This document shows positions 35,259 to 44,930 of a DNA stretch of 64,000 nt, piece after piece. A program made the position numbers and the translations under genes. The stretch spans positions 6,397 through 70,396 of the forward strand of contig CALQJI020000012.1 of assembly GCA_943330855.2 (NCBI GenBank). The letters run 5' to 3'. How positions within the stretch are numbered: the stretch's first letter is position 1; each line of letters opens with the position of its first letter. This stretch comes from Klebsiella pneumoniae. GTDB lineage: Bacteria; Verrucomicrobiota; Verrucomicrobiia; Limisphaerales; SXTU01. The notes beneath the pieces are model-generated. The model saw only the letters and a list, made by a program, of their open reading frames with translations, was not told where the DNA came from and ran no database searches.

Positions 35259-35531
35259 TCACTCCCCCAACCGCACGATGGCCGCATACACATGACCCAT
35301 CTGGCCGCGCTCGAACCGCCCCGACAACGCCCGCATCACCGCGCCCTTGTCCCGCGTGAGTGAGAGGCCCTGCGCCCGCAGTGCCGCGTAAGCCTCGCGC
35401 ACGCCTTGCCGGAAGGCCTGCTCCGCGTTCACCTGTCGCAGCGCGTCGTCAATGTTCGCGCGGAACTTCTCGATGTCGTCCGCCTGATACTCCTCCAGCA
35501 ACAGCGGCAGGAGCGTCTCGAAGTTCAGCAC
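35259..35531 (-). CDS. Probable C-terminal continuation of the ligase-type gene in a shifted frame
   Basis: The track start is GTG with no nearby ATG. The frame is open upstream to 35639 and overlaps the tail of ORF 35449-36402. Its helical-looking sequence ...LNFETLLPLLLEEYQADDIEKFRANIDDALRQV... reads like real protein. Confidence 0.4.
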   Translation of the reverse strand: MLNFETLLPLLLEEYQADDIEKFRANIDDALRQVNAEQAFRQGVREAYAALRAQGLSLTRDKGAVMRALSGRFERGQMGHVYAAIVRLGE

Positions 35532-36402
35532 ATCCGCCGTCTCCAGCGCATTCCAGCACGTGGCGATAACGGCGACCTTTATTGATGCCCGTGGCCCAGT
35601 GGATGGCCTCCACGCTCTCCGGCTTGCACTTCCACAACGTCACGCGGCCCGACGGTTCGGTCACATACCACACCGCGCCCTCCGTGCCGGACAGCTTGTC
35701 GTCCCCCGCCGGCTGGTTCCGCCGCTCCATCTCCTCGCGGAGCGTCTGGAAACGCGCCACCGGGTCATCGCCCGCGCGCAGCTCACCGATGAGCGGCGCG
35801 ACCGGCACGCTGCCCGTCTGCAACTGAAACGGCCCCACCGACGCCGCATCCGCTGTCCGCACGCCGAAGAGCACTGCCACCGCCAGCGGCACGTCGTAGG
35901 CGATGAGATGGGCGTTGCGCGCGCCGAACATCTCGAAGCTCACATGGCAGCCGTTCGCCTCCACCAGCCCCGGCAGGTCCGGATGCCGCGCCAGCAGCTC
36001 GCGCCAGTAATCGAGGAACGGCCCCCACTTGCTGTTCCGCAGCACCGGCGAGAGCCGCAGCTTGTAGGTGAGCCGCCAGCGTCCGTCCGCGTCCGCGTAG
36101 CGATAGGCCAGCACGTTCGTCCCATCGAGCTTCTCGTAGAGGTGCGCCGACGCGATGGGCGGGAAGTGGAACCGCCCGTTCTTGCCGAAGGGATAATGCA
36201 GCTTGGGCGTGGCGAAGATGCGCTGCGGCGCAGGCCGCCCGTCCACGCGCAGCAACGCCAGCCCGCCGTAAGTGTGGTTCGGCTTCTGGCAGAGAAACCC
36301 CTCCAGCCGCACCTCGTCATTGAACGGGTCGGTCACATCGAACGGTTGGAGAAACTTCGCGTCCACGCCCAGTAGTTCGGCGGCTTGTTCGAGGTCGGTC
36401 AT
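35449..36402 (-). CDS. RNA-ligase-type covalent nucleotidyltransferase (KxDG), apparently frameshifted near its 3' end
   Basis: The motif set occurs in canonical order: I YEKLDGTN (nt 36115-36135), III-like SFEMFG, IV EGAVWY and V TLWKCKP. I used the ATG at 36400-36402 (MTDLEQ). The last ~40 codons are Arg/Gly-rich and look out of frame. Confidence 0.7.
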   Translation of the reverse strand: MTDLEQAAELLGVDAKFLQPFDVTDPFNDEVRLEGFLCQKPNHTYGGLALLRVDGRPAPQRIFATPKLHYPFGKNGRFHFPPIASAHLYEKLDGTNVLAYRYADADGRWRLTYKLRLSPVLRNSKWGPFLDYWRELLARHPDLPGLVEANGCHVSFEMFGARNAHLIAYDVPLAVAVLFGVRTADAASVGPFQLQTGSVPVAPLIGELRAGDDPVARFQTLREEMERRNQPAGDDKLSGTEGAVWYVTEPSGRVTLWKCKPESVEAIHWATGINKGRRYRHVLECAGDGGCAELRDAPAAVAGGVSGGRHREVPREH

Positions 36403-36482
36403 GTGCTGACTTTGCCATCCGAGAATTGTTCCCGAAAGCCAATAACCGGACCACCAGCAGCGGCGCAACTGCCCCGTGCCAC

Positions 36483-37373
36483 TCACCCCGGCGGCCAGCC
36501 CTTCGGCTCGCGGCCGAAAACCGCCTCATAGGCCCGCACCGTTGACGGTGGCGGACAGTCCATGGCCTCACGGCGAGATTGCTCGTTGCCCTCGGCCAGT
36601 TCCGCGCGGACGCGCTCCAGTTCCTCCTGCCGCTCCTTCGCCTCCTGCTCCTTCGCGAACGCCTCCGACGGCGAGTAGTCCTCCGGCTTCTGCTTCTCCA
36701 ACGCGTCCCGCAGCGGCGACAAGTCCACCAACCCCACCTCAGGAAAATGATATTCCCAATCCGCGCCCAGCGATTTAATCCGGCGGAACACCATCCGATA
36801 CACGGGCGTCAGGTCGGTGCGCTCGTGAATGCCCGAACACGAAATCCACGACGTGCCCATGTAAAAGCGCAGATAGTCCCCATTCCACCACTCATCCATC
36901 TGGCCATCCAAGTAGCTGGCCAAGAATCCGCCGGCGGCCCGAAACGATCCGATGTCCACCACCCGGCCGGGCCCCGTGATGATCTCATGATTGTCCGAGA
37001 ACACGTCCCACAAACACCGTCCCACCAGTTCCGTCACTTCGGCCAAAGCGTCCACCGGTGCCTCGGTCCAATCCGCCGACACCTCTTCCAACGTGGGCGC
37101 TGGTGTTGGTGCCAGCTTCGGATTGTCCGGCTCGCGCTCGCGCCGGATGCGGATCAACTCCTCGAGGTTCCGGTGCATCCGCAAGGACTCCTGGAACACC
37201 TGCTCCGCCGACGGGTGGAAGCACGCCAGCAACGGCGACTTCTCCCAACCCTCCGGCGCAAGCTCCCCCAGCACGTCCGCCCCGGCGAAGCCGTGCGGAA
37301 ACAGCCGGTCAAAAAACGCCTTCAACTCGGCGTCGGTCAGGCGGTTGGTTTGCTCATGGTCCATGATTGGCAT
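36483..37373 (-). CDS. Hypothetical protein (296 aa), no family recognised
   Basis: The ATG at 37371-37373 overlaps the end of the JetD-like gene by 20 nt. Codon usage is protein-like and the C-terminal part is acidic coiled coil (EAFAKEQEAKERQEELERVRAELAE). Confidence 0.55.
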   Translation of the reverse strand: MPIMDHEQTNRLTDAELKAFFDRLFPHGFAGADVLGELAPEGWEKSPLLACFHPSAEQVFQESLRMHRNLEELIRIRREREPDNPKLAPTPAPTLEEVSADWTEAPVDALAEVTELVGRCLWDVFSDNHEIITGPGRVVDIGSFRAAGGFLASYLDGQMDEWWNGDYLRFYMGTSWISCSGIHERTDLTPVYRMVFRRIKSLGADWEYHFPEVGLVDLSPLRDALEKQKPEDYSPSEAFAKEQEAKERQEELERVRAELAEGNEQSRREAMDCPPPSTVRAYEAVFGREPKGWPPG

Positions 37374-38244
37374 CTTCGATCTGCGACTTGGTTTCGGACG
37401 CCAACAGCAATGCCTCCTGCTCCAGGCCGGCGTTGTGCTCGCTGATCAAATGGACGACCTGGCGCACTTCGCTGGAGTCGCTGGTTCGCAAGCGGGTGAG
37501 CAGGGATTGAGATGGGGAGTTGGCCAGTAACTCGCGCTTGGAGAAGCGGCGGAAGAGTTCCGGCAACTGCGTTGGCAGATGAAGCCGCGCTCGCGACCCC
37601 AGCCGCGCTCGCACACGCTCGAACTCATCGAGGCCAGTCGGGTCGTAGTCGGGAAGATGCCAGAGCTGGAACGCCCCGTCGGTCTGCGCCCCCAGCCAGT
37701 CGAGCAGACGATTCGAGCCGCGTCCCCGTCCGTGGATGGCCAGTGTCACCGCCAGCCCCAAAGATTCCACGGCGAGAAAGACCGCCGGGTTCTCGACCAA
37801 TGCACAGGTGCCATGCAGCGACCACGCGGGCGTTTCTCCGAGCGCAAAGGAAAACACGCCGTTCCGCTCCGTCGCCAGTGCCGCCTCCGCATCCTTGCCA
37901 TCGCGTCGCAGGACGCCGGATGCGAAGCAGCGCACGCAGACGATTTCGGGCGTGTCGTTGGCAAGCGCCTTTGAGTCGCGAAAGCGGGCGACTCCGGTGA
38001 CGCGGGCAGACGCATTTCCGGGTGTGCCTGATTCCGGGAACTCGATTCGTCGGAACGCTCGCAGTGCCGCCACGTCTCGCACTACCAGCCGCCGGCCCGC
38101 TCTGGAACGCTCCTCGACCACCACGCTGCCCTGGATCAAAGGCTTCAGCGCCTGGAGTAACGACCCGCTGCACTCGGAACGCGGCAGTGAACCCCGCTCC
38201 AGCAGCGCGTCCAATCGCGCGCAGATGTTCTCCCGCGCCGTCAT
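37354..38244 (-). CDS. Toprim-domain protein resembling the Wadjet JetD / MksG C-terminal (DUF2220-like) domain
   Basis: CALVENPAVFLAV (Toprim Glu) and WHLPDYDPTGLDEF (DxD) have the spacing seen in JetD-type Toprim domains. The ATG overlaps the stop of the SMC-like gene (ATGA). Confidence 0.6.
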   Translation of the reverse strand: MTARENICARLDALLERGSLPRSECSGSLLQALKPLIQGSVVVEERSRAGRRLVVRDVAALRAFRRIEFPESGTPGNASARVTGVARFRDSKALANDTPEIVCVRCFASGVLRRDGKDAEAALATERNGVFSFALGETPAWSLHGTCALVENPAVFLAVESLGLAVTLAIHGRGRGSNRLLDWLGAQTDGAFQLWHLPDYDPTGLDEFERVRARLGSRARLHLPTQLPELFRRFSKRELLANSPSQSLLTRLRTSDSSEVRQVVHLISEHNAGLEQEALLLASETKSQIEDANHGP

Positions 38245-40937
38245 GCCGTGGCTGCGCGCTTCACGCCCACTCGATGTTTGTTGCGAAGCACGATTCGTCC
38301 CTGCTGCGGCTGGAGAAAATAGAGCGCGTCCACTTCGCTCACCGCTTCAGGCGCGGCCGTGATGGCGATGAAACCGAGCTGTCGCGCGGTGCTCAGAATG
38401 GCGTGGCGGTTGGCCGGGTCGAGCGTCTGGATTTCGTCGAGGAAGAACGGCACCGCGCAGTCGTCGCGCCGCAACTGAGCTTTCAAGAGCAGGAGATTGA
38501 ACAGCACCTTGATGGTGATAGTCGTGCCGTGCGATTCGATTTGCCGGAAGTCGTGGTAGGTGTGCCGCCGGTCGTCCGCGCCCGTCACGGTGAAGCCGAG
38601 AGTGAACAGGTCGGCGAAACGGATAACCGGATTGCCCTCCAGCTTGCTGCGAAAGTTCGCGATGGCGGATTCCTGCATTGGGTCGTGGTCAAATAATCCT
38701 CCCGGTTGGAAGGCCGCCAGACGCTCAATCCAACTCACATAGTCGCTATTCTTCAGCACTTCCAGTTTGATCACTTTCAGGTTGGAGACGCGCACCTTGG
38801 CGAAGGCACGGTTAAGATCGGTGGCGGCACCCGCGACGTGGTCGAGATTCTTCAGCACGAGGTCGAACGTCGCCTTCAGCCCGTGCAGGTGCGCGTTCCA
38901 ATCGCGAGCCAGCGCGTCCTCCTTCTCCACCAGCGCGTCGAGTTCGCCCCGCAGGTTCGCGACCGTTTCACCTTCCTCGTGTCCGTGGAACTCGTCGCCA
39001 AACCACCGCTCCGTTTCGGCGAGCAGGTTCGCGATCTCGTCGCTCAACTTCTCCTGCTTATCCTGCTGGCGTCGGAACAGCGCGATGGCGGCGTCGAAGT
39101 CATCCGGGATGCCGTCCCCCACGACGGCCTTGCGGGAGAAATCCGGCTGGATGCACAGATTGAAGCGGCCCATGACCGCGTTGAACTCATCCTCCGCTTT
39201 GCGAATCGCGCCCTCCGCCTCGGCTTTCGCCTTCTCCGCAGTCCTGCCTTGCGCCGTGAGTTTGCTGATGCGCTCGCTGGCTGCGGCAATGGTGTCGGTG
39301 ATTTTCTTCAACTCGGCACGCAGGAGCGGCTCCTCGGCTTTGGACCGCTGGTATTCCTCGAAGCGGAAAACCAGTTTAGCCTTCGCGTCGTGCGTGGCGC
39401 GCTTGGTTTTCACTTCCGCCACAAGTTTCTCGCGCTGCTCAACGGCCGAAAGGATGCCCGTCCAGCGGCGGAGCGTCTCCGCGTATTCCTTGAGCAGCTC
39501 GCGGGCAGCTTCGACGTTTTCCAGTCCCACGAGCGGTGTGCGGCCGGAAGTAAGGGGAATCGTGACGTCCGCATCCCGATAGCAGCCACCTGAAACACGG
39601 GCCAGCAAGGCACGGAGCGCGGCCAGCAGTTCCCGCTCCCGCGTCACCTCGATGCCGTCCCGGCCCACCGCCAACTCCAGCAGGTCCGGGTTCAACAGGC
39701 GGAAGAGGAGGTTCAGTTCGTCATCGCTGAAGTGCCGCCGCAGCACGGTGACGGCGAGCTTGTCGAAGCGAGCGATGGTCTGCTCCTTCTGTTTCACCAG
39801 GCCGCCGTAGTGGTCGAGTTTCCTTTTTGCCTGTTCCCGAGACTCACCCTCAGCATTGGCAAGCTGGTTTTCCAGACCCCGAATGTCGTTCTGGAGATTC
39901 GACAGCGCGGCTCGCTCCAACTCCTCGACAAAACCGGCAAACTCCTTGTCCTGCCCCGCCAGCGCGTCCAGCCGGGTGGTGAATCCGCCCTTCTGCTCCG
40001 AGAAGGTGTTCACGTCGGCACGCCGGTCAGTCAGTTCTTCCTCGGCTTGCTTCAGCAGTCCGGCTTGCTTGGCGGCTGCCTCGCGCGAACGCACCAGCGC
40101 CGCCTCGTGTTCCTGCTCAAACCGCTGCTTCTTCCCGCTCAAGTCCATCCACCGCCAGACGAGTTCGCCGCGTGCCGTCTCGCGTTCGGCGAACTTGGTC
40201 ACGAGCTTCTCCACCAACGATTTGTTCTTTTTGAAGTTCTCGAACTGACGGCGGCGCTCCCGGATGCGGTCGTAGTCGTCGCCGAACAGCGCGCGGGCGT
40301 CGAGCGCGGTGCGGTCGGGCGGAATGTCGGCGAGCATCAGCAGCCCGTCACGCATCTGCTTTTGGGTGATGGCACTCAGGGAGAGCAGGTTCTTCAGCGT
40401 CTCGCGGAACAGATGATACTTGTCGCTGTCGCGCAACGAGACGATGCCAAGGCCACGCGCGTCGCCGCCGACGGGCGGGAGCAGCAGTTCGCGATGCTCC
40501 TGCGCGCTCTTGAGCACGCGCAGTTGCCGGAGCGCGAGGCGGGCGTTCACCTCGTTAGGTTCGCGGACCTGATTCCGCTCATCTAGGAAGTCCGTCACGT
40601 CGAAGGGACCGAGGTGACAGAATCGCTCCGGTTCGCCGCCGCTGGTCTTGCTCTGCCCGCGCCAGCCGACGACGCACTGGCCGGTCACGCCGAGGCACTC
40701 GAAGAGGACGTAGCTGTATTGGCCGGGAAAATAGAACTCGCGCGTCTGCTCCGGCGTGTAGGAGCCAAAGTTCATGTGCCCGCGGTCGTCGAGGTAGAGG
40801 AACTGGAGCGTGTTGATGAGCGTGGTCTTGCCCGTGTTGTTCTGCCCGACAATCTGGAGCGTGCCGGCCAGTTCGACCTCCGCGTATTCGTAGCGGCCGG
40901 ACTGGAGGAGGATGAGGCGTTGCGGGCCGGTGGGCAT
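38241..40937 (-). CDS. SMC/Rad50-like ABC ATPase with long coiled coil (JetC/MksB-like)
   Basis: The N-terminal P-loop is GQNNTGKTT. About 600 aa of heptad-rich E/K/R/L/A sequence follow. The C-terminal Walker B is VPFFLDEIQTLD. The protein is 898 aa. Confidence 0.7.
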   Translation of the reverse strand: MPTGPQRLILLQSGRYEYAEVELAGTLQIVGQNNTGKTTLINTLQFLYLDDRGHMNFGSYTPEQTREFYFPGQYSYVLFECLGVTGQCVVGWRGQSKTSGGEPERFCHLGPFDVTDFLDERNQVREPNEVNARLALRQLRVLKSAQEHRELLLPPVGGDARGLGIVSLRDSDKYHLFRETLKNLLSLSAITQKQMRDGLLMLADIPPDRTALDARALFGDDYDRIRERRRQFENFKKNKSLVEKLVTKFAERETARGELVWRWMDLSGKKQRFEQEHEAALVRSREAAAKQAGLLKQAEEELTDRRADVNTFSEQKGGFTTRLDALAGQDKEFAGFVEELERAALSNLQNDIRGLENQLANAEGESREQAKRKLDHYGGLVKQKEQTIARFDKLAVTVLRRHFSDDELNLLFRLLNPDLLELAVGRDGIEVTRERELLAALRALLARVSGGCYRDADVTIPLTSGRTPLVGLENVEAARELLKEYAETLRRWTGILSAVEQREKLVAEVKTKRATHDAKAKLVFRFEEYQRSKAEEPLLRAELKKITDTIAAASERISKLTAQGRTAEKAKAEAEGAIRKAEDEFNAVMGRFNLCIQPDFSRKAVVGDGIPDDFDAAIALFRRQQDKQEKLSDEIANLLAETERWFGDEFHGHEEGETVANLRGELDALVEKEDALARDWNAHLHGLKATFDLVLKNLDHVAGAATDLNRAFAKVRVSNLKVIKLEVLKNSDYVSWIERLAAFQPGGLFDHDPMQESAIANFRSKLEGNPVIRFADLFTLGFTVTGADDRRHTYHDFRQIESHGTTITIKVLFNLLLLKAQLRRDDCAVPFFLDEIQTLDPANRHAILSTARQLGFIAITAAPEAVSEVDALYFLQPQQGRIVLRNKHRVGVKRAATA

Positions 40938-40955
40938 TGGGGGTTTTTGGATTTA

Positions 40956-40981
40956 CGATTAGCGATTAGCGATTAGCGATT
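40956..40981. repeat. Tandem heptamer array (CGATTAG)x~3.7 at the junction of the small gene and the SMC-like gene
   Basis: Read directly. It contains the TAA stop of gene 40966-41529 and lies 19-44 nt upstream of the ATG at 40937. Confidence 0.9.
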
Positions 40982-41529
40982 TCGGACTGAGCCGTGTCGG
41001 GCGCGGCCGTCGCCGCCTGTCCGGTTTGGGCGAGTTCGAGGCACTTGGTGAACACGCGGTGGAACGGGCGCAGGAAACGGAATTCCTCGTCCCCGAGCCA
41101 TTTCACCCAGCCGATGCGCTCCATGTGCTTGAGCAGGTTTTCGACATCCTTGAGGTCATGCACCTTCACCTGACGCAGCAGCGCCGAGTAGCGGTCGAGC
41201 GTGAAATGCGGCAGCATCGTGAGCAGGAAGTTTTGCCCGAAGATGAATTCCTCGATCGGCCGGCCCTGATTCGCCGCGTGGTCAATGAGGATGTAGGAAA
41301 ACACCGCGATGCGCGGCAGCGTGTCGGGCACGGTCTCCGGATTGTCCGGCTCAAGGTAGAAGAACTCGCGCTCGTGGCGGACGAGCTTGAGGCCGAGCGC
41401 GTCGAATTGCGCGGTGTAGTCGTCGAAGCGCGCCGCCAGCGTGGAGAACTCGGGCTCGTCGTCCGGGCCGAGATGGTAGCCGCGCCGGAGCCGGTCGAAG
41501 ATGAGCGCGAGATGCGGGAGGGAGTTCAT
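40966..41529 (-). CDS. Small (187 aa) protein in the JetB/MksE (KITE-like) position
   Basis: The call rests on position only: it lies between the putative kleisin and the SMC-like ATPase, has a 4-nt overlap with the upstream gene, and its size and helical/WH-like composition fit. No motif was verified. Confidence 0.4.
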   Translation of the reverse strand: MNSLPHLALIFDRLRRGYHLGPDDEPEFSTLAARFDDYTAQFDALGLKLVRHEREFFYLEPDNPETVPDTLPRIAVFSYILIDHAANQGRPIEEFIFGQNFLLTMLPHFTLDRYSALLRQVKVHDLKDVENLLKHMERIGWVKWLGDEEFRFLRPFHRVFTKCLELAQTGQAATAAPDTAQSEIANR

Positions 41530-42749
41530 ACGGAGACGAGTTGGACGGGGGCAGCTACGAGCGAACCGTCGGCAGTCGGGTAGGCGCGCGGCACGCGGTT
41601 GGTGAAGGCCGCTTGAAAGCGCGGGTCGAAGACCAACTCGCCGAAACCGGCAAGCACTTGGCCCGTGTCCTTGCCCGGATGCCCCTCGACGAGCCAGCCG
41701 AGCAAATCTTCCAAAGGCAGCGAGGGCAGCACTCGTTCCGGCAACGAATCGAGCCAGAGGCGGCGCACGAGCGCGTCCGGCGCGGCTTCCTCGGCGGCGA
41801 ACTCCAGCACCGGCGGCGGCTCCGGCGGGTGTTCGATGACGCGTCGCAAGGCCAGCGCGATGGCCCCGTCACCGGGCACGTGCTGAAACCGCAGGGCGCA
41901 CACGCTGATGAGCGGCTCGCTGCCCCACTTGGCGATGCCTTCGCTTTGGAGTTTCTCCAGCGCGCGGGCCGCGCCCTCGGCGATGGCACTGGAGCGGCGC
42001 AAGGATTCGTAGAGCGGCTGAATCTCCTTGCGGCATTGTGTGAAGACCCGCAGCGCGTGGTCGCGGACGAGCCGAAGGAAGCGGAGGTTGCGCGCGAGGG
42101 CCGGATGGTCGTTGAACAGCGCCTCGTCGCGGGCGCGTCCGAGCAACCGCTCGGTGTCGTCGAAGGCCGCGCGCAGCGGCCCCTCGCGGTTGACGATGCC
42201 AATCATCGGCTCCACGTAACGCTCCATCCAGTGAACGATGCGTCGGAACTTCTCGCGCACGGACACGCGAGAACGCTCGGTCTTGAAACGCCCGATCTCG
42301 ATGAGAATGGCGTGCTGAGTTTCGTCGAGGTCAGCCTGAATGCGCCGGAGAGTCAGGCTGATTTCCTCGAAGGCCCGTTTCACCTGCGCGACATCCTCCT
42401 CGTCGAGCCCGCGGGCGAGGCACTTGCAAGTCGTTTCGAGCGAGAGCACGTAGCCGCCAATCATCTCTGGCGTGGCGGGATTCGCCTCATTGAACAAATA
42501 CGTGAGCAACCGCGCCACCGGCTCGGCAAGAAAGCAGAGTTCGCTCCCCGGCTCGGTAGGCACGAGGATTTGCAACTCACGCAAGCGCCGCCAAGCCGTC
42601 TCCGACAGCTCCTCGCCTGTGCCTGGATACGCGCGGATGAGCCGCAGCGCATCCGACTCGGATATTTCCCTTTCGTGCTCCGCCAGCGCGTGCAACAGCG
42701 GCCCATGCTGGGCGCAGAAGTTGAAGAAACTTTGCGGGTTGATTTTCAC
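41526..42749 (-). CDS. 407-aa helical protein in the JetA/MksF (kleisin-like) position
   Basis: First gene of the operon, with a GTG start at 42747-42749. The assignment is by gene order and size only. Confidence 0.4.
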   Translation of the reverse strand: MKINPQSFFNFCAQHGPLLHALAEHEREISESDALRLIRAYPGTGEELSETAWRRLRELQILVPTEPGSELCFLAEPVARLLTYLFNEANPATPEMIGGYVLSLETTCKCLARGLDEEDVAQVKRAFEEISLTLRRIQADLDETQHAILIEIGRFKTERSRVSVREKFRRIVHWMERYVEPMIGIVNREGPLRAAFDDTERLLGRARDEALFNDHPALARNLRFLRLVRDHALRVFTQCRKEIQPLYESLRRSSAIAEGAARALEKLQSEGIAKWGSEPLISVCALRFQHVPGDGAIALALRRVIEHPPEPPPVLEFAAEEAAPDALVRRLWLDSLPERVLPSLPLEDLLGWLVEGHPGKDTGQVLAGFGELVFDPRFQAAFTNRVPRAYPTADGSLVAAPVQLVSV

Positions 42750-42786
42750 TTGTCGCTCAACGTCAGGCTGCGGTCATTCCGGCCAG

Positions 42787-42873
42787 TCACAGCACCTGTT
42801 TCTTGAACCAGGCTTTCACTTCCTTGAAGTGGAAGTCGAGCGAGCGGGGCGGGGCTATCTCGCTGGGCTTCAT
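42787..42873 (-). pseudogene. Displaced duplicate of the purB 3' end (remnant)
   Basis: Nt 42787-42843 align with the real purB end at 43596-43652, roughly 47 of 57 identical by hand alignment. The remnant encodes ...[18 protein letters not shown] versus purB ...[18 protein letters not shown]. Confidence 0.7.
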
Positions 42874-43028
42874 GGCTTGAGGGCGACGACTTTGCCGTCC
42901 TGCCAGACGTAGATGGGGGTGCCGTGGGCGCGGGCGGTCTTGCGCGCGGCCTGCCCGGCGCGGCGCAGGGCGCGGCCTGCGGGGGTGAGGCGGAGCTTCG
43001 GGCGGGGGGCTTGGTTGGTTCGGTTCAT
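42870..43028 (-). CDS. Small basic protein (52 aa) coupled to the zeta-like ATPase
   Basis: MNRTNQAPRPKLRLTPAGRALRRAGQAARKTARAHGTPIYVWQDGKVVALKP. Its ATG overlaps the ATPase stop (ATGA), and its own stop overlaps the ATG of the purB remnant. It is too short to appear in the ORF track. Confidence 0.45.
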   Translation of the reverse strand: MNRTNQAPRPKLRLTPAGRALRRAGQAARKTARAHGTPIYVWQDGKVVALKP

Positions 43029-43540
43029 GGGCCTATCTCCAGCAGTTCCGGCATCTGCCGCGAATTGTCATACACTTCCCACAGGTCAGCAAGCGGGCGG
43101 TAGGTGTTTTGGAAATTGTCCCAGCCGCGCACGTAGCGGCGCAGGACGTCGGCACGCGGGACGTTGTGCCCGCCCTGTTTCACGCGGGCGGCGATGCGGC
43201 GGAGCGCCAGTAGGGGCGAATGCAGGCGCAGGAAAATGATCTCTATCCGGTAGCCGGCGGCTTTCCACCGCTGCAATCGCCCCACATACCCCAGCCCGCT
43301 CAGGGTGGTTTCAAAGGCGAAATCGGTCCGCGCCTTCGCGAGGCGGTCCAACTCCGACAGCAGCAGCCGTCCGCCCGCAAGCGAGGCCAGCTCGGGCCGC
43401 AACGGCGACAGTCCGGCAGCGATGAGGTCGGCGTTCACGAAACGAATCACGCCCGCGTCCTTCGGTAGGTATTCCCGCGCGAAGGTTGTCTTACCCGCGC
43501 CGTTCGGCCCGGCGATGACGATGCAGCGGGGAGTTTTCAT
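43025..43540 (-). CDS. Zeta-toxin-like P-loop kinase/ATPase (171 aa)
   Basis: Walker A lies in IVIAGPNGAGKTTFAREYL. ...FAFETTLSG... and ...GGHNVPRADVLRRY follow, the typical zeta/AAA_33-like pattern. Confidence 0.8.
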   Translation of the reverse strand: MKTPRCIVIAGPNGAGKTTFAREYLPKDAGVIRFVNADLIAAGLSPLRPELASLAGGRLLLSELDRLAKARTDFAFETTLSGLGYVGRLQRWKAAGYRIEIIFLRLHSPLLALRRIAARVKQGGHNVPRADVLRRYVRGWDNFQNTYRPLADLWEVYDNSRQMPELLEIGP

Positions 43541-43595
43541 GCGTGCGAACTCGTGTCTAGTCGTGGTTGCGGTTTCCGCCTCCTTACGTCGGCGG

Positions 43596-44930
43596 TTACA
43601 GCCCCAGTTTCTTGAACCGCGCTTTGACTTCCTTGAAGTGGAAGTCGAGGGAGCAGAGGGCTTCGAGTTCGCCTTTCTTGAAGTGCTTGGCGACTTCGGG
43701 ATTGGCTTGGAGTTGCGCGACGAAGTTGGCGTCGTCGCGGCCGGCGTGCTTGACCTCCCAGGTTTTCATCGCGGCGTCCTGGCAGAGTTTGTAGGCGGCT
43801 TCGCGGGTCAGGCCTTTGCAGATGAGCGCGAGGAGGATGGTCTGGCTGTTCCACATGCCCAGCGAGAGGCCGAGGTTCTTCTTCATGTTCGCGGGATAGA
43901 CCACGAGGCCGTCCATCAGGCGCGTGAGCAGGCCGAACATGTAGTCGAGCAGCGTGCAGGAGTCGGGGAAGATGATGCGCTCGACGCTGCTGTGGCTGAT
44001 GTCGCGCTCGTGCCAGAGGGCGACGTTTTCCAGCGCGGCGACGGCGTTGCCGCGCAGGACGCGGGCGAGGCCGGTGAGGCGTTCCCAGGTGATGGGGTTG
44101 CGCTTGTGCGGCATGGCGCTGCTGCCTTTCTGGCCGATGGTGAAGGCTTCTTCGGCTTCGAGGACTTCGGTGCGCTGGAGGTGGCGGAACTCGACGGCCC
44201 AGCGCTCGATGCTCGCGCCGACGAGCGCCATCGTGAGTTGAAACTCGGCGTGGATGTCGCGCTGGACGACTTGCGTGGCGATGGGCGCGGGGCGCAGGCC
44301 AAGTTTTTTGCAGACGTAGGCTTCGACGCGTGGTGAAAGGTGCGCGCTCGTGCCGACGGCACCGGAGACCTTGCCGACGGCGACGACTTCTCGGACGCGC
44401 TCCAACCGCTCCAGCGCGCGGCCGAACTCGTCATACATCAGCGCGAGCTTCAGCCCGAAAGTCGTCGGCTCCGCGTGGATGCCGTGGCTGCGGCCGATGC
44501 AGGGGGTGAACTGATGCTCCTTCGCGCGCTTGGCGAGGGCGGCGCGCACCGTCTTCACGTCGGCGATGAGGATGTCCGCGCTCTGGACCATCTGCACGCC
44601 GTAGCAGGTGTCGCCCACGTCACTGCTGGTGAGGCCGAAGTGGAACCAGCGGCTGGCGGGGTCGTTGATCTTCTCCGCGACGGCGGTGGTGAAGCCGATC
44701 ACGTCGTGGTTGAGCACTTTCTCCAGTTCCTTCTGCCGCGCCACGAGTCCGGGCAGGTCGGCGAACCACGCGTTGCAGCCGGCTTTGAGTTTGGCGAAAT
44801 CCTGCTTCGGCACGATGCGCTCCTTCACGAGGGCCTCGCTGGCGAGGAGTTCGATTTGGAGCCAGAGCTTGAGCTTGTTTTCGTCGGTCCAGATGGCCCG
44901 CATTTCAGGACGGGAGTAGCGCGTAATCAT
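43596..44930 (-). CDS. purB: Adenylosuccinate lyase
   Basis: [19 protein letters not shown]... and the [10 protein letters not shown] signature loop are present. 444 aa. Confidence 0.95.

What the first reader, a model, noticed from the sequence alone, without database searches (positions are those of the whole stretch)
35259..42749. Compact Wadjet/MksBEFG-like SMC operon extended by an orphan gene and an RNA-ligase-type nucleotidyltransferase
Seen: six to seven co-oriented minus-strand genes are tightly coupled, with ATGA overlaps at 41526-41529 and 38241-38244 and a 20-nt overlap at 37354-37373. The 898-aa protein has a P-loop GQNNTGKTT (nt 40821-40847), about 600 aa of coiled-coil-like sequence and a Walker B FFLDE (nt 38433-38447). 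The next protein carries Toprim-like LVENPAVF (Glu codon 37792-37794) and LPDYDPTG (37642-37650). The order is 407-aa helical protein, 187-aa small protein, SMC-like ATPase, Toprim protein, which mirrors jetA-jetB-jetC-jetD / mksF-mksE-mksB-mksG. Established: Wadjet/JetABCD is an SMC-based anti-plasmid defence in which the JetD Toprim nuclease cuts DNA captured by loop extrusion. Four things are unusual here. All four proteins are smaller than the JetABCD sizes I recall. The P-loop is of the GxNNxGKT type (more like OLD/AAA_15-style ATPases) rather than GxxGxGKS. No clear LSGG signature is visible; SHGTT sits at the equivalent spot. The operon also runs on into an unrecognisable 296-aa gene and a KxDG ligase-type enzyme. 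I know of no described SMC/Toprim defence module coupled to a polynucleotide ligase. Inference: the ligase might reseal self nucleic acid, process the cleaved target, or belong to a separate repair module riding on the operon.
Basis: partly seen in the sequence, partly recalled or inferred. Interest (0 to 1): 0.85.

Follow-up and report, generated by a model that had tools for sequence, protein, structure and literature searches.

The report
Compact Wadjet-like cassette beside unrelated ligase
Four of these genes form a compact relative of the known Wadjet/MksBEFG anti-plasmid machine (a DNA-looping SMC motor plus a DNA-cutting enzyme), but the "orphan" and ligase genes that seemed to extend it are unrelated neighbours, and the ligase is broken by a frameshift.

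Summary
The sequence observation holds. All ORFs, overlaps and motifs are at the stated coordinates.

The first four genes (42749-37354, minus strand) are a self-contained cassette: kleisin-sized protein, MukE/MksE-type KITE, SMC ATPase, short MksG/JetD-type Toprim nuclease. In 84 loci fetched through the nuclease, the same order and sizes recur. All 48 loci where all four genes were detected show that order.

Neither the orphan nor the ligase occurs in any of the 84 cassette loci. None of 50 ligase loci from at least nine phyla or candidate divisions has a cassette gene within the up to 10 kb held on each side.

In related Verrucomicrobiota MAGs, purB and the ligase flank an interval with different cargo: type III R-M plus an AEP-TOTE helicase, AbiEii, or a CoiA-like nuclease. 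So the cassette sits in a variable slot.

The ligase ORF and the 90-aa ORF are one 380-aa gene split by a 1-nt insertion. That insertion is identical in four assemblies.

The cassette is a divergent, compact member of a known kind. It is closest to curated Mks condensin models but far below their cut-offs. PADLOC's JetA/JetB models do not recognise it. Interest is modest.

The parts
41526..42749 (-). Gene 1 of the cassette: 407-aa helical protein, putative kleisin (MksF in the literature's naming; labelled 'MksB' by NCBIfam and Pfam)
   Evidence: NCBIfam NF040857: 3.8e-20, residues 58-397 against profile 60-401/412, far below the equivalog cut-off. Homologues carry precomputed Pfam PF28010. 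First gene in all 48 loci where all four genes were detected. No hit to PADLOC JetA (0/16), to PDB sequences or to E. coli MukF by hhalign (prob. 1%). The kleisin role is therefore inferred from position and size.
40966..41529 (-). Gene 2: 187-aa KITE subunit, MksE/MukE-like. Its ATG overlaps the stop of gene 1 (ATGA).
   Evidence: Pfam MksE PF21980: 5.3e-30, 105 bits against cut-off 27. Family profile hits MukE structures (7nyw_E, 1.5e-5). hhalign against E. coli MukE: 95%, E 2.5e-8. Only 4-5 of 16 family members touch PADLOC JetB1, weakly.
38241..40937 (-). Gene 3: 898-aa SMC-family ATPase (MksB in the literature's naming; 'MksF' in NCBIfam/Pfam). Walker A at 40821-40847, signature-like ESHGTT at 38520-38537, Walker B at 38433-38447, conserved His888 at 38274-38276.
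   Evidence: NCBIfam NF040859: 7.5e-44, residues 4-862 against profile 7-892/926. Across 41 family members G31xNNxGKT38, E801-S802-x-G804-T-T, FFLD834-E835, D840 and H888 are at least 95% conserved, while residues 250-700 are less conserved. The middle region gives only weak coiled-coil-type PDB hits. Weak hhalign match of the C-terminal head to MukB.
37354..38244 (-). Gene 4: 296-aa short MksG/JetD-type Toprim nuclease (Pfam DUF7281/JetD_C). Acidic residues: E151 (37792-37794), D199/D201 (37642-37650), E275/E277 (37414-37422). Its ATG overlaps the stop of gene 3.
   Evidence: Pfam JetD_C: 25 bits against cut-off 22. 58 of 66 family members match PADLOC JetD2, best 5e-8, over the C-terminal domain only. 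E151, D199, D201, E275 and E277 are invariant in 66 sequences. AF2 pLDDT 89. Best Foldseek match is 8b7f_A (C. glutamicum MksG), then Top6A and Spo11.
36483..37373 (-). NOT part of the cassette: conserved hypothetical protein (293/296 aa) seen mainly in Verrucomicrobiota and Planctomycetota records. It overlaps the end of gene 4 by 11-20 nt.
   Evidence: 850 homologues, no Pfam domain. Absent from all 84 cassette loci. Next to the ligase in only 2 of 50 ligase loci. Three homologues lie in three unrelated contexts. Confident AF2 model (pTM 0.85) with no fold match in PDB or BFVD.
35259..36402 (-). NOT part of the cassette: RNA-ligase-type nucleotidyltransferase gene (380 aa in relatives), split here by a 1-nt insertion at 35576-35580. 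Motif I lysine K91 is at 36130-36132. The 90-aa ORF at 35259-35531 is its C-terminal part.
   Evidence: Homologues are 380 aa and 58-96% identical. Invariant K91-x-D93-G94, E157, E241-G242 and K258-x-K260. Pfam RNA_ligase is only sub-threshold (0.026; 8 of 13 members). The frameshift is identical in four assemblies.
43025..43540 (-). Flank, not part of the cassette: 171-aa zeta-toxin/AAA_33-type P-loop kinase, followed by a 52-aa ORF (42870-43028)
   Evidence: Pfam Zeta_toxin 1.9e-10 and AAA_33 3.7e-6. Homologous DNA lies next to purB in L048, which lacks the cassette. Absent from all 84 cassette loci.
43596..44930 (-). Flank: purB (adenylosuccinate lyase). Together with the ligase it bounds the variable interval.
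   Evidence: Lyase_1/ADSL_C domains. purB lies 0.9-9.5 kb upstream of the ligase in L002, L003, L004 and L048.

Best explanation
Window 37354-42749 (minus strand) is a self-contained four-gene cassette of the MukBEF/MksBEF/Wadjet lineage. It encodes a kleisin-sized protein, a MukE-type KITE protein, a compact SMC ATPase and a short MksG/JetD-type Toprim nuclease.

By analogy with characterised JetABCD/MksBEFG systems, the most likely mechanism is as follows (inferred). The SMC-kleisin-KITE motor loads on DNA and extrudes loops using ATP. On small circular DNA such as plasmids, extrusion runs to completion or stalls. The Toprim dimer is then licensed to cut, using Mg2+ held by E151/D199/D201, with E275/E277 as candidate catalytic glutamates.

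The cassette is accessory cargo in a variable interval between purB and the ligase gene. The zeta-like kinase gene at the purB end of that interval is shared with one relative (L048).

The orphan gene and the ligase gene are unrelated neighbours. They are probably co-transcribed with the cassette here only because of where it sits. The ligase is a member of a separate, strongly conserved stand-alone family, and in this organism a frameshift splits it.

Shown: gene content, homologies, conserved catalytic residues, cassette conservation, lack of co-occurrence, the frameshift. Inferred: loop extrusion, anti-plasmid role, co-transcription.
For: Homology of the parts:
- Pfam MksE 5e-30 and JetD_C above cut-off.
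- NCBIfam Mks models hit genes 1-3 over their full lengths.
- MukE match by PDB profile and by hhalign.
- The nuclease model's best fold match is MksG 8B7F, followed by Top6A and Spo11.

Active-site logic:
- Walker A, signature-like block, Walker B and His are conserved in 41 SMC homologues.
- E151, D199, D201, E275 and E277 are invariant in 66 nuclease homologues.
- These parallel MksG's Mg2+ ligands E236/D279 and its proposed nucleophilic residues E349/E351 (PMC10123090).

Cassette integrity:
- In 84 nuclease-anchored loci the SMC gene was detected in 79, immediately upstream of the nuclease gene. All four genes were detected, in the same order, in 48.
- No conserved fifth gene.

Accessory and defence context:
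- The purB-to-ligase interval holds other cargo in relatives: type III R-M plus AEP-TOTE helicase, AbiEii, CoiA-like nuclease, DUF7309/DUF6930.
- In the closest ligase relative (L001) a type I R-M HsdR gene abuts the ligase; purB is not on that short contig.
- L053 has the cassette beside Hachiman HamA plus helicase, BrxC/D, TerB, Vsr and HNH.
- Pooled cassette neighbours include integrases, resolvases, Fic, AbiEi, ApeA-HEPN and TrwC.
- Cassettes occur on a Salinibacter plasmid and a Pseudomonas megaplasmid.

Independence of orphan and ligase.

Frameshift.
Against: - No functional data exist for this compact family.
- Its closest curated sequence models are named Mks condensin. P. aeruginosa MksBEF acts in chromosome organisation (review PMC10586767), so a housekeeping role is not excluded.
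- The kleisin assignment is not shown by sequence or structure.
- The nuclease lacks detectable similarity to the long N-terminal part of JetD. PADLOC JetD hits cover only the C-terminal domain. How it docks onto the motor could therefore differ.
- The orphan overlaps the nuclease gene by 11-20 nt and no terminator-like site separates them. Co-expression in this one genome is likely, and a local, lineage-specific functional link cannot be formally excluded.
Confidence: 0.75

Rival explanations
1. All six genes form one functional unit in which the ligase reseals or processes nucleic acid cut by the Toprim nuclease, and the orphan is an adaptor.
For: The genes share a strand. The orphan start overlaps the nuclease gene's stop by 11-20 nt. 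No terminator-like site lies between them.
Against: - 0 of 84 cassette loci carry the ligase or the orphan. 37 of those loci have at least 2.5 kb downstream.
- 0 of 50 ligase loci carry cassette genes.
- Orphan homologues lie in unrelated contexts.
- The ligase is frameshifted in this genome in four assemblies.
- Relatives have other cargo in the same interval.
Confidence: 0.03
2. The four genes are a chromosomal MksBEF-type condensin used for chromosome organisation. The Toprim protein would be a topology-modifying or regulatory accessory rather than a defence nuclease.
For: The nearest curated models are NCBIfam 'Mks condensin complex' models. The KITE subunit is closer to MukE than to JetB. 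P. aeruginosa MksBEF contributes to chromosome organisation (PMC10586767).
Against: - All NCBIfam scores are far below the equivalog cut-offs: 72 against 750, 86 against 400, 150 against 1900.
- The nuclease gene is present with intact acidic residues wherever the cassette is seen.
- The cassette is absent from the same interval in related genomes.
- It lies near integrases, toxin-antitoxin genes and defence genes, and also on plasmids.
Confidence: 0.12
3. The zeta/AAA_33-type kinase, the orphan and the ligase are remnants of a separate RNA-repair (kinase plus ligase) module that the cassette insertion split.
For: One Acidobacteriota locus (L037) has a zeta-like kinase gene next to the ligase. 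One Verrucomicrobiota locus (L008) has RlaP and PNKP RNA-repair genes beside the ligase. L048 has kinase, orphan and ligase in the same interval without the cassette.
Against: The kinase was found in only 2 of 50 ligase loci and the orphan in only 2 of 50. The ligase's immediate neighbours are heterogeneous and mostly housekeeping.
Confidence: 0.05

Closest known systems
Wadjet / JetABCD = MksBEFG (C. glutamicum MksBEFG; E. coli GF4-3 and P. aeruginosa PA14 JetABCD)
   Same: Four-gene order: kleisin position, KITE, SMC ATPase, Toprim nuclease. Translationally coupled genes. The nuclease has the Top6A-like Toprim fold and the same E...DxD...ExE acidic pattern. It occurs in accessory, defence-island contexts.
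   Different: - All four proteins are shorter: 407/187/898/296 aa.
- PADLOC JetA models hit 0 of 16 family members, JetB only 4-5 of 16 weakly, and JetC only around the P-loop.
- The nuclease has only about 145 residues ahead of the Toprim domain, with no detectable similarity to the N-terminal part of JetD.
- The P-loop reads GxNNxGKT and the signature block is ESHGTT.
MukBEF / MksBEF condensins (E. coli MukBEF; the NCBIfam 'Mks condensin complex' models NF040857-NF040859)
   Same: These are the best sequence-level relatives of genes 1-3. All three NCBIfam models align over their full lengths. The KITE subunit matches MukE. The protein sizes are similarly compact (model lengths 412/232/926).
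   Different: Scores are far below the equivalog cut-offs. Every member of this family seen here carries a Toprim nuclease gene, whereas P. aeruginosa MksBEF is described as lacking JetD (PMC10586767). The context here is accessory or mobile rather than core chromosomal.
ATP-dependent RNA ligases of the covalent nucleotidyltransferase superfamily (Pfam RNA_ligase PF09414). This applies to the ligase gene only.
   Same: Invariant KxDG, E (motif III position), EG and KxK in the usual order and spacing. Weak PF09414 alignments span these motifs.
   Different: All members score below the Pfam threshold. There is no PDB sequence hit. A conserved C-terminal region of about 105 aa is of unknown type. 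The gene has no conserved partner. In this window it is frameshifted.
OLD / Gabija GajA / PARIS AriA ATPase-Toprim systems
   Same: An ABC-type P-loop ATPase is paired with a Toprim nuclease. PADLOC gives local P-loop hits to GajA, AriA and Old.
   Different: The hits cover only about 30 residues. Here the ATPase and the Toprim domain are separate proteins, accompanied by KITE and kleisin-position subunits, and the ATPase has a long, poorly conserved central region that gives only weak coiled-coil-type matches. Full-length homology is to the Mks SMC subunit.

Membership tests
Wadjet / MksBEFG (SMC-based anti-plasmid system) | SMC-family ATPase with Walker A, signature motif, Walker B and a long intervening coiled-coil/hinge region | tested here: met
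   Full-length hit to the NCBIfam Mks SMC-subunit model, 7.5e-44. Walker A, ESHGTT, FFLDE and His888 are at least 95% conserved in 41 homologues. The central 250-700 region is less conserved and gives only weak coiled-coil-type hits. The signature block is degenerate (SxG). Coiled-coil and hinge architecture was not modelled structurally.
Wadjet / MksBEFG (SMC-based anti-plasmid system) | KITE subunit (MukE/MksE/JetB type) | tested here: met
   Pfam MksE 5.3e-30. MukE structures hit at 1.5e-5. hhalign against E. coli MukE gives 95%.
Wadjet / MksBEFG (SMC-based anti-plasmid system) | Kleisin subunit (MukF/MksF/JetA type) | tested here: inconclusive
   The 407-aa protein matches the NCBIfam model for the first-gene Mks protein, 3.8e-20, and holds the kleisin position in 48/48 four-gene loci. 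There is no hit to PADLOC JetA (0/16), PDB or MukF (hhalign 1%). No structure was predicted for it.
Wadjet / MksBEFG (SMC-based anti-plasmid system) | JetD/MksG Toprim nuclease with conserved metal-binding acidic residues | tested here: met
   JetD_C scores 25 bits against a cut-off of 22. 58 of 66 members match PADLOC JetD2. E151, D199, D201, E275 and E277 are invariant. The top Foldseek match is MksG 8B7F, E 7.8e-5.
Wadjet / MksBEFG (SMC-based anti-plasmid system) | Elongated N-terminal CAP domain of JetD/MksG | tested here: inconclusive
   Only about 145 residues precede the Toprim domain. No family match covers them: all Pfam and PADLOC JetD hits cover the C-terminal domain only. The AF2 model shows a small helix/strand N-terminal domain (residues 1-70) and a low-confidence linker at 74-92. 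Foldseek lists weak winged-helix/MarR-type matches.
Wadjet / MksBEFG (SMC-based anti-plasmid system) | Conserved four-gene cassette in the order kleisin-KITE-SMC-nuclease | tested here: met
   The SMC gene was detected in 79 of 84 loci, directly upstream of the nuclease gene. All four genes were detected, in the same order, in 48.
Wadjet / MksBEFG (SMC-based anti-plasmid system) | Restriction of circular plasmid DNA that depends on the ATPase and the nuclease | not testable with these tools
   Needs transformation or conjugation assays and in vitro cleavage assays.
Wadjet types I-III as modelled in PADLOC-DB v2.0.0 | Recognition of all four subunits by the JetA/JetB/JetC/JetD models | tested here: not met
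   JetA: no hit for the window protein or for 16 relatives. JetB: none for the window protein, 4-5 of 16 relatives weakly. JetC: only short local hits, to the P-loop region (JetC1) and one coiled-coil stretch (JetC3). JetD: C-terminal domain only.
Mks condensin complex (NCBIfam equivalogs NF040857/8/9) | Score at or above the curated equivalog cut-off | tested here: not met
   72 against 750, 86 against 400 and 150 against 1900 bits. These are distant relatives, not equivalogs.
Hypothetical 'SMC/Toprim module coupled to a polynucleotide ligase' | Recurrent co-occurrence of the ligase and/or orphan with the cassette | tested here: not met
   0 of 84 cassette loci. 0 of 50 ligase loci. Three orphan contexts are unrelated.
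ATP-dependent RNA ligase / covalent nucleotidyltransferase (the ligase gene) | Motifs I (KxDG), III, IV (EG) and V (KxK) in order, plus a family-model match | tested here: inconclusive
   The motifs are invariant in 13 homologues. PF09414 hits are only sub-threshold (0.026; 8 of 13 members, best 0.019). No PDB sequence hit. No structure was predicted.

The most novel reading that the evidence does not exclude
The compact cassette (about 400/185/900/285 aa; Pfam PF28010, PF21980, PF28007 and DUF7281) may be an undescribed fourth Wadjet-type lineage. It would be the nuclease-bearing sister of the nuclease-less MksBEF condensins. That would give a concrete intermediate for the published hypothesis that MksBEF/MukBEF arose from Wadjet-like defence systems by loss of JetD. 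It would also be a minimal SMC-nuclease system well suited to structural work.
Probability: 0.3. Interest if true: 0.5.

Novelty: new member of a known kind. Interest (0 to 1): 0.3.

Why it matters
The headline claim, an SMC/Toprim defence module wired to a polynucleotide ligase, would have been a new mechanism. It does not hold, so no new biology rests on it.

Three smaller points remain.

1. There is a well-populated family of compact MksBEFG-like cassettes. The nuclease profile finds 616 clusters at 50% identity, 214 of them at E<=1e-30. PADLOC's JetA and JetB models do not recognise this family. RefSeq annotates the plasmid copies as hypothetical proteins. Wadjet-type systems may therefore be under-counted in soil and freshwater Verrucomicrobiota and relatives.

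2. The family looks closer to MukE/Mks models than to JetABC yet keeps the nuclease. That bears on how condensins and defence SMCs are related.

3. The purB-to-ligase interval behaves as a defence-cargo slot in Limisphaerales-like genomes.

Tried and rejected
- Single-sequence and profile searches of the SMC, kleisin and nuclease families against PDB sequences gave nothing specific; only the KITE profile hit MukE.
- hhalign of the kleisin family against E. coli MukF gave 1%. The SMC family against MukB gave a weak match to the C-terminal head only (22%).
- I looked for direct or inverted repeats and att-like sites flanking the cassette, and for promoters and terminators. Only short, chance-level repeats appeared, no sigma-70-like sites, and terminator-like sites were at background level.
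- I looked for a conserved partner of the ligase by clustering neighbours in 50 loci. There is none. A SWIM-SNF2 helicase appears in 6 loci.
- I looked for a conserved fifth gene next to the cassette. There is none.
- Foldseek of the orphan model against PDB and BFVD gave no match.
- Literature searches for DUF7281/PF23947, 'type IV Wadjet' and 'TOTE conflict system' found nothing.
- I considered a sequencing error as the cause of the ligase frameshift. I rejected this because four assemblies carry the identical insertion.
- A programmed +1 frameshift at AAA-G was considered but not tested. There is no supporting evidence for it.
- The OLD/Gabija-type reading of the ATPase was rejected because those hits are limited to the P-loop.

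Full report
**1. Observation**

The overlaps and motifs are exactly at the quoted coordinates:
- ATGA at 41526-41529 and at 38241-38244.
- The 20-nt overlap at 37354-37373.
- GQNNTGKTT at 40821-40847 and FFLDE at 38433-38447.
- The Toprim Glu codon at 37792-37794 and D-Y-D at 37642-37650.

G+C content is uniform at about 0.63-0.66 across the region.

Two gene models need correcting. First, the '345-aa ligase' and the '90-aa ORF' are one gene. Its homologues are 380 aa, start MTDLEQ (ATG at 36402) and read GINKVAVIATCWNALET across the point where the window changes frame. Second, the window carries one extra base in the AAAGG run at 35576-35580, compared with AAT-AAG-GTC in L004.

The same insertion is present, with 100% identical flanking DNA, in an ENA metagenome assembly and in three Logan assemblies of different sequencing runs. 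It is therefore a real allele, not an assembly error. The window corresponds to ENA ERZ28593288 scaffold_127.

**2. The four-gene module**

- Gene 2 (187 aa) matches Pfam MksE at 5.3e-30. Its family profile hits MukE structures at 1.5e-5 over nearly the full length. hhalign against E. coli MukE gives 95% probability.
- Gene 3 (898 aa) aligns over residues 4-862 with NCBIfam NF040859, the Mks SMC-subunit model, at 7.5e-44.
- In 41 family members, Walker A (G31xNNxGKT38), an E801-S802-H-G804-T-T block, Walker B (FFLD834-E835), D840 and H888 are at least 95% conserved. The central 450 residues are much less conserved and give only weak coiled-coil-type matches.
- The 'OLD/AAA_15-like' P-loop hits cover only about 30 residues.
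- Gene 1 (407 aa) matches NCBIfam NF040857, the first-gene Mks protein, at 3.8e-20 over its full length. It does not match JetA models, PDB sequences or MukF. Its kleisin role is inferred from position and size.
- Gene 4 (296 aa) passes the Pfam JetD_C gathering score and also touches DUF7281.
- 58 of 66 relatives of gene 4 match PADLOC JetD2, over the C-terminal domain only.
- E151, D199, D201, E275 and E277 are invariant in 66 sequences.
- This pattern parallels C. glutamicum MksG. There E236 and D279 are the Mg2+ ligands needed for nuclease activity, and E349/E351 are proposed nucleophilic residues (PMC10123090).
- An AlphaFold2 model of gene 4 (pLDDT 89) finds MksG (8B7F) as its best PDB match. 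Topoisomerase VI-A and Spo11 follow.

**3. The cassette recurs as a unit**

A metagenome scan with the nuclease alignment returned 80 loci. Four more came from exact look-ups.
- tblastn found the SMC gene in 79 of 84 loci, directly upstream of the nuclease gene. Four of the other five have 505 nt or less of upstream sequence.
- All four genes were detected, in the same order, in 48 loci.
- SMC lengths are 880-922 aa.
- The gene caller's Pfam labels on homologues are PF28010, PF21980 and PF28007, plus JetD_C/DUF7281 on some nuclease genes.
- A profile search of 1.84 billion cluster representatives found 616 nuclease clusters at E<=1e-3 and 214 at E<=1e-30. Full-length ones are 278-307 aa.
- Copies occur on Salinibacter ruber plasmid pSR76 and on a Pseudomonas megaplasmid, all annotated 'hypothetical protein'.
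- No fifth gene is conserved beside the cassette.

**4. The orphan and the ligase are not part of it**

- tblastn with the orphan and the repaired ligase found neither in any of the 84 cassette loci. 37 of those loci have at least 2.5 kb downstream.
- A scan of one genome per species with a ligase alignment gave 50 loci. They come from Verrucomicrobiota, Acidobacteriota, Gemmatimonadota, Deltaproteobacteria, Cytophagia, KSB1, Planctomycetota, Binatia and an anammox MAG.
- None of those 50 loci has a cassette gene within the up to 10 kb held on each side. Only two (L039, L048) have the orphan next to the ligase.
- Clustering of ligase neighbours shows no conserved partner.
- Three orphan homologues on long contigs lie in three unrelated contexts.

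**5. Why the genes are adjacent here**

In four related Verrucomicrobiota MAGs, purB (window 43596-44930) lies upstream of the ligase at very different distances. The cargo in between differs:
- L004: 0.9 kb, a CoiA-like nuclease.
- L003: 2.3 kb, an AbiEii toxin.
- L048: 3.2 kb, the zeta-like kinase, a DUF7309/DUF6930 protein and the orphan.
- L002: 9.5 kb, a type III restriction-modification pair and an AEP-TOTE helicase.

In L001, whose ligase is the closest relative (96%), a type I HsdR gene abuts the ligase. purB is not on that short contig.

Homology between the window and L048 stops at about 42883 on one side and about 37334 on the other. That brackets exactly the four cassette genes.

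The simplest reading is that the cassette is one of many alternative cargoes in a variable slot bounded by purB and the ligase. The overlap with the orphan would then be a by-product of where the cassette sits. I found no flanking repeats or recombinase gene, so how the cargo is exchanged is unknown.

**6. Function**

The invariant nuclease residues point to a Wadjet-like role in restricting extrachromosomal DNA rather than a housekeeping condensin role. So do:
- The presence/absence polymorphism among relatives.
- The defence-island example L053, with Hachiman HamA plus helicase, BrxC/D, TerB, Vsr and HNH.
- Pooled neighbours that include integrases, resolvases, Fic, AbiEi, ApeA-HEPN and TrwC.
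- Plasmid carriage.

The mechanism is inferred from characterised JetABCD/MksBEFG systems (PMC10586767; PMC10512200). It consists of ATP-driven loop extrusion and recognition of small circular DNA, followed by Toprim cleavage.

The condensin alternative keeps some weight. The nearest curated models are 'Mks condensin' models, although all scores are far below the equivalog cut-offs.

**7. Comparison and novelty**

The architecture is that of Wadjet/MksBEFG. The cassette differs in several ways:
- It is compact.
- Its nuclease has a short N-terminal region.
- Its P-loop and signature block are family-specific.
- It lies outside PADLOC's three Wadjet types.
- Its KITE subunit is closer to MukE.

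[quoted passage not shown] This family could be a nuclease-bearing relative of that branch, but I did not build the phylogeny needed to show it. I found no paper mentioning DUF7281 or a fourth Wadjet type.

I file the finding as a new, divergent member of a known kind. The ligase coupling that drove the original score is not real.

**8. Side observations**

- The ligase family is well conserved (58-96% identity across phyla) and has invariant KxDG, EG and KxK motifs. It gives only sub-threshold Pfam RNA_ligase hits and no PDB sequence hit.
- One locus places the ligase beside RlaP and PNKP RNA-repair genes.
- The orphan has a confident predicted fold with no match in PDB or BFVD.
- The NCBIfam and Pfam labels 'MksB' and 'MksF' are swapped relative to literature usage, where MksB is the ATPase.

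Noticed in passing
window 35259-36402 (minus); loci L001-L050: The ligase belongs to an uncharacterised 380-aa family with invariant KxDG/EG/KxK nucleotidyltransferase motifs. It is 58-96% identical across at least nine phyla or candidate divisions. It is found only in MAGs, has no conserved neighbour, no PDB sequence hit and only sub-threshold Pfam RNA_ligase matches. This looks like a patchily distributed, possibly horizontally moving, stand-alone RNA-ligase-like clade.
   Followed up: partly
window 35576-35580: A 1-nt insertion (AAT AAA GGT here, against AAT AAG GTC in L004) splits the ligase gene after motif V. It is identical in four assemblies (L137-L140). The downstream frame is still well conserved at the protein level, so the mutation is recent, or the two parts are still made. 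A +1 slip at AAA-G was not tested.
   Followed up: partly
window 36483-37373 (minus): The 293/296-aa 'orphan' has 850 homologues, named ones being Verrucomicrobiota and Planctomycetota. Cys51, His53 and Cys120 are invariant and His129 nearly so. The AlphaFold2 model is confident (pLDDT 88, pTM 0.85) but has no fold match in PDB or BFVD. Function is unknown.
   Followed up: partly
window 36402-43596; L001, L002, L003, L004, L013, L048: In Limisphaerales-like genomes the stretch upstream of the ligase is a variable slot with different cargo in each genome, often defence-type. In four loci purB bounds it. Cargo: type III R-M plus AEP-TOTE helicase (L002), AbiEii (L003), CoiA-like nuclease (L004), and DUF7309/DUF6930 plus the orphan (L048). 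Without purB on the stretch held, a type I HsdR gene (L001) and a DUF3800 gene (L013) abut the ligase. Here the slot holds a zeta-like kinase plus the Mks cassette.
   Followed up: partly
window 42870-43540 (minus): A 171-aa zeta-toxin/AAA_33-type P-loop kinase is followed by a 52-aa ORF that overlaps its stop by 4 nt. This may be a toxin-antitoxin-like pair or a small polynucleotide-kinase-type gene. A 33%-identical kinase gene sits next to the ligase in L037.
   Followed up: no
NCBIfam NF040857/NF040859; Pfam PF28010/PF28007 labels on L051-L054 and L137: The curated models named 'MksB' match the ~400-aa first-gene (kleisin-position) protein. Those named 'MksF' match the ~900-aa P-loop SMC ATPase. 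This is the reverse of literature usage, where MksB is the ATPase and MksF the kleisin. Annotations transferred from these models will carry swapped names.
   Followed up: partly
L008 11282-14730: In one Verrucomicrobiota MAG the ligase homologue lies next to an RlaP nucleotidyltransferase and an 849-aa PNKP (kinase-phosphatase-ligase). These are classic RNA-repair genes and hint at an RNA-repair role for the ligase family.
   Followed up: no
L004 9143-11143: A CoiA-like nuclease ORF runs in frame, with no stop codon, into the ligase ORF, giving a 666-aa ORF. This could be a fusion protein or simply two genes that happen to share a frame.
   Followed up: no
L099 3745-4467; L051 11129-11647 and L052 5447-5965: Oddities in cassette loci. 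L099 has a truncated JetD-like gene with no SMC gene upstream. L051 and L052 have an extra 172-aa JetD_C-matching ORF just downstream of a complete cassette.
   Followed up: no
L015, L019, L024, L047 (upstream); L002, L048 (downstream): A SWIM-zinc-finger SNF2-family helicase (805-1021 aa) lies close to the ligase in 6 of 50 loci from two phyla. It is the only neighbour family seen in more than three loci.
   Followed up: partly
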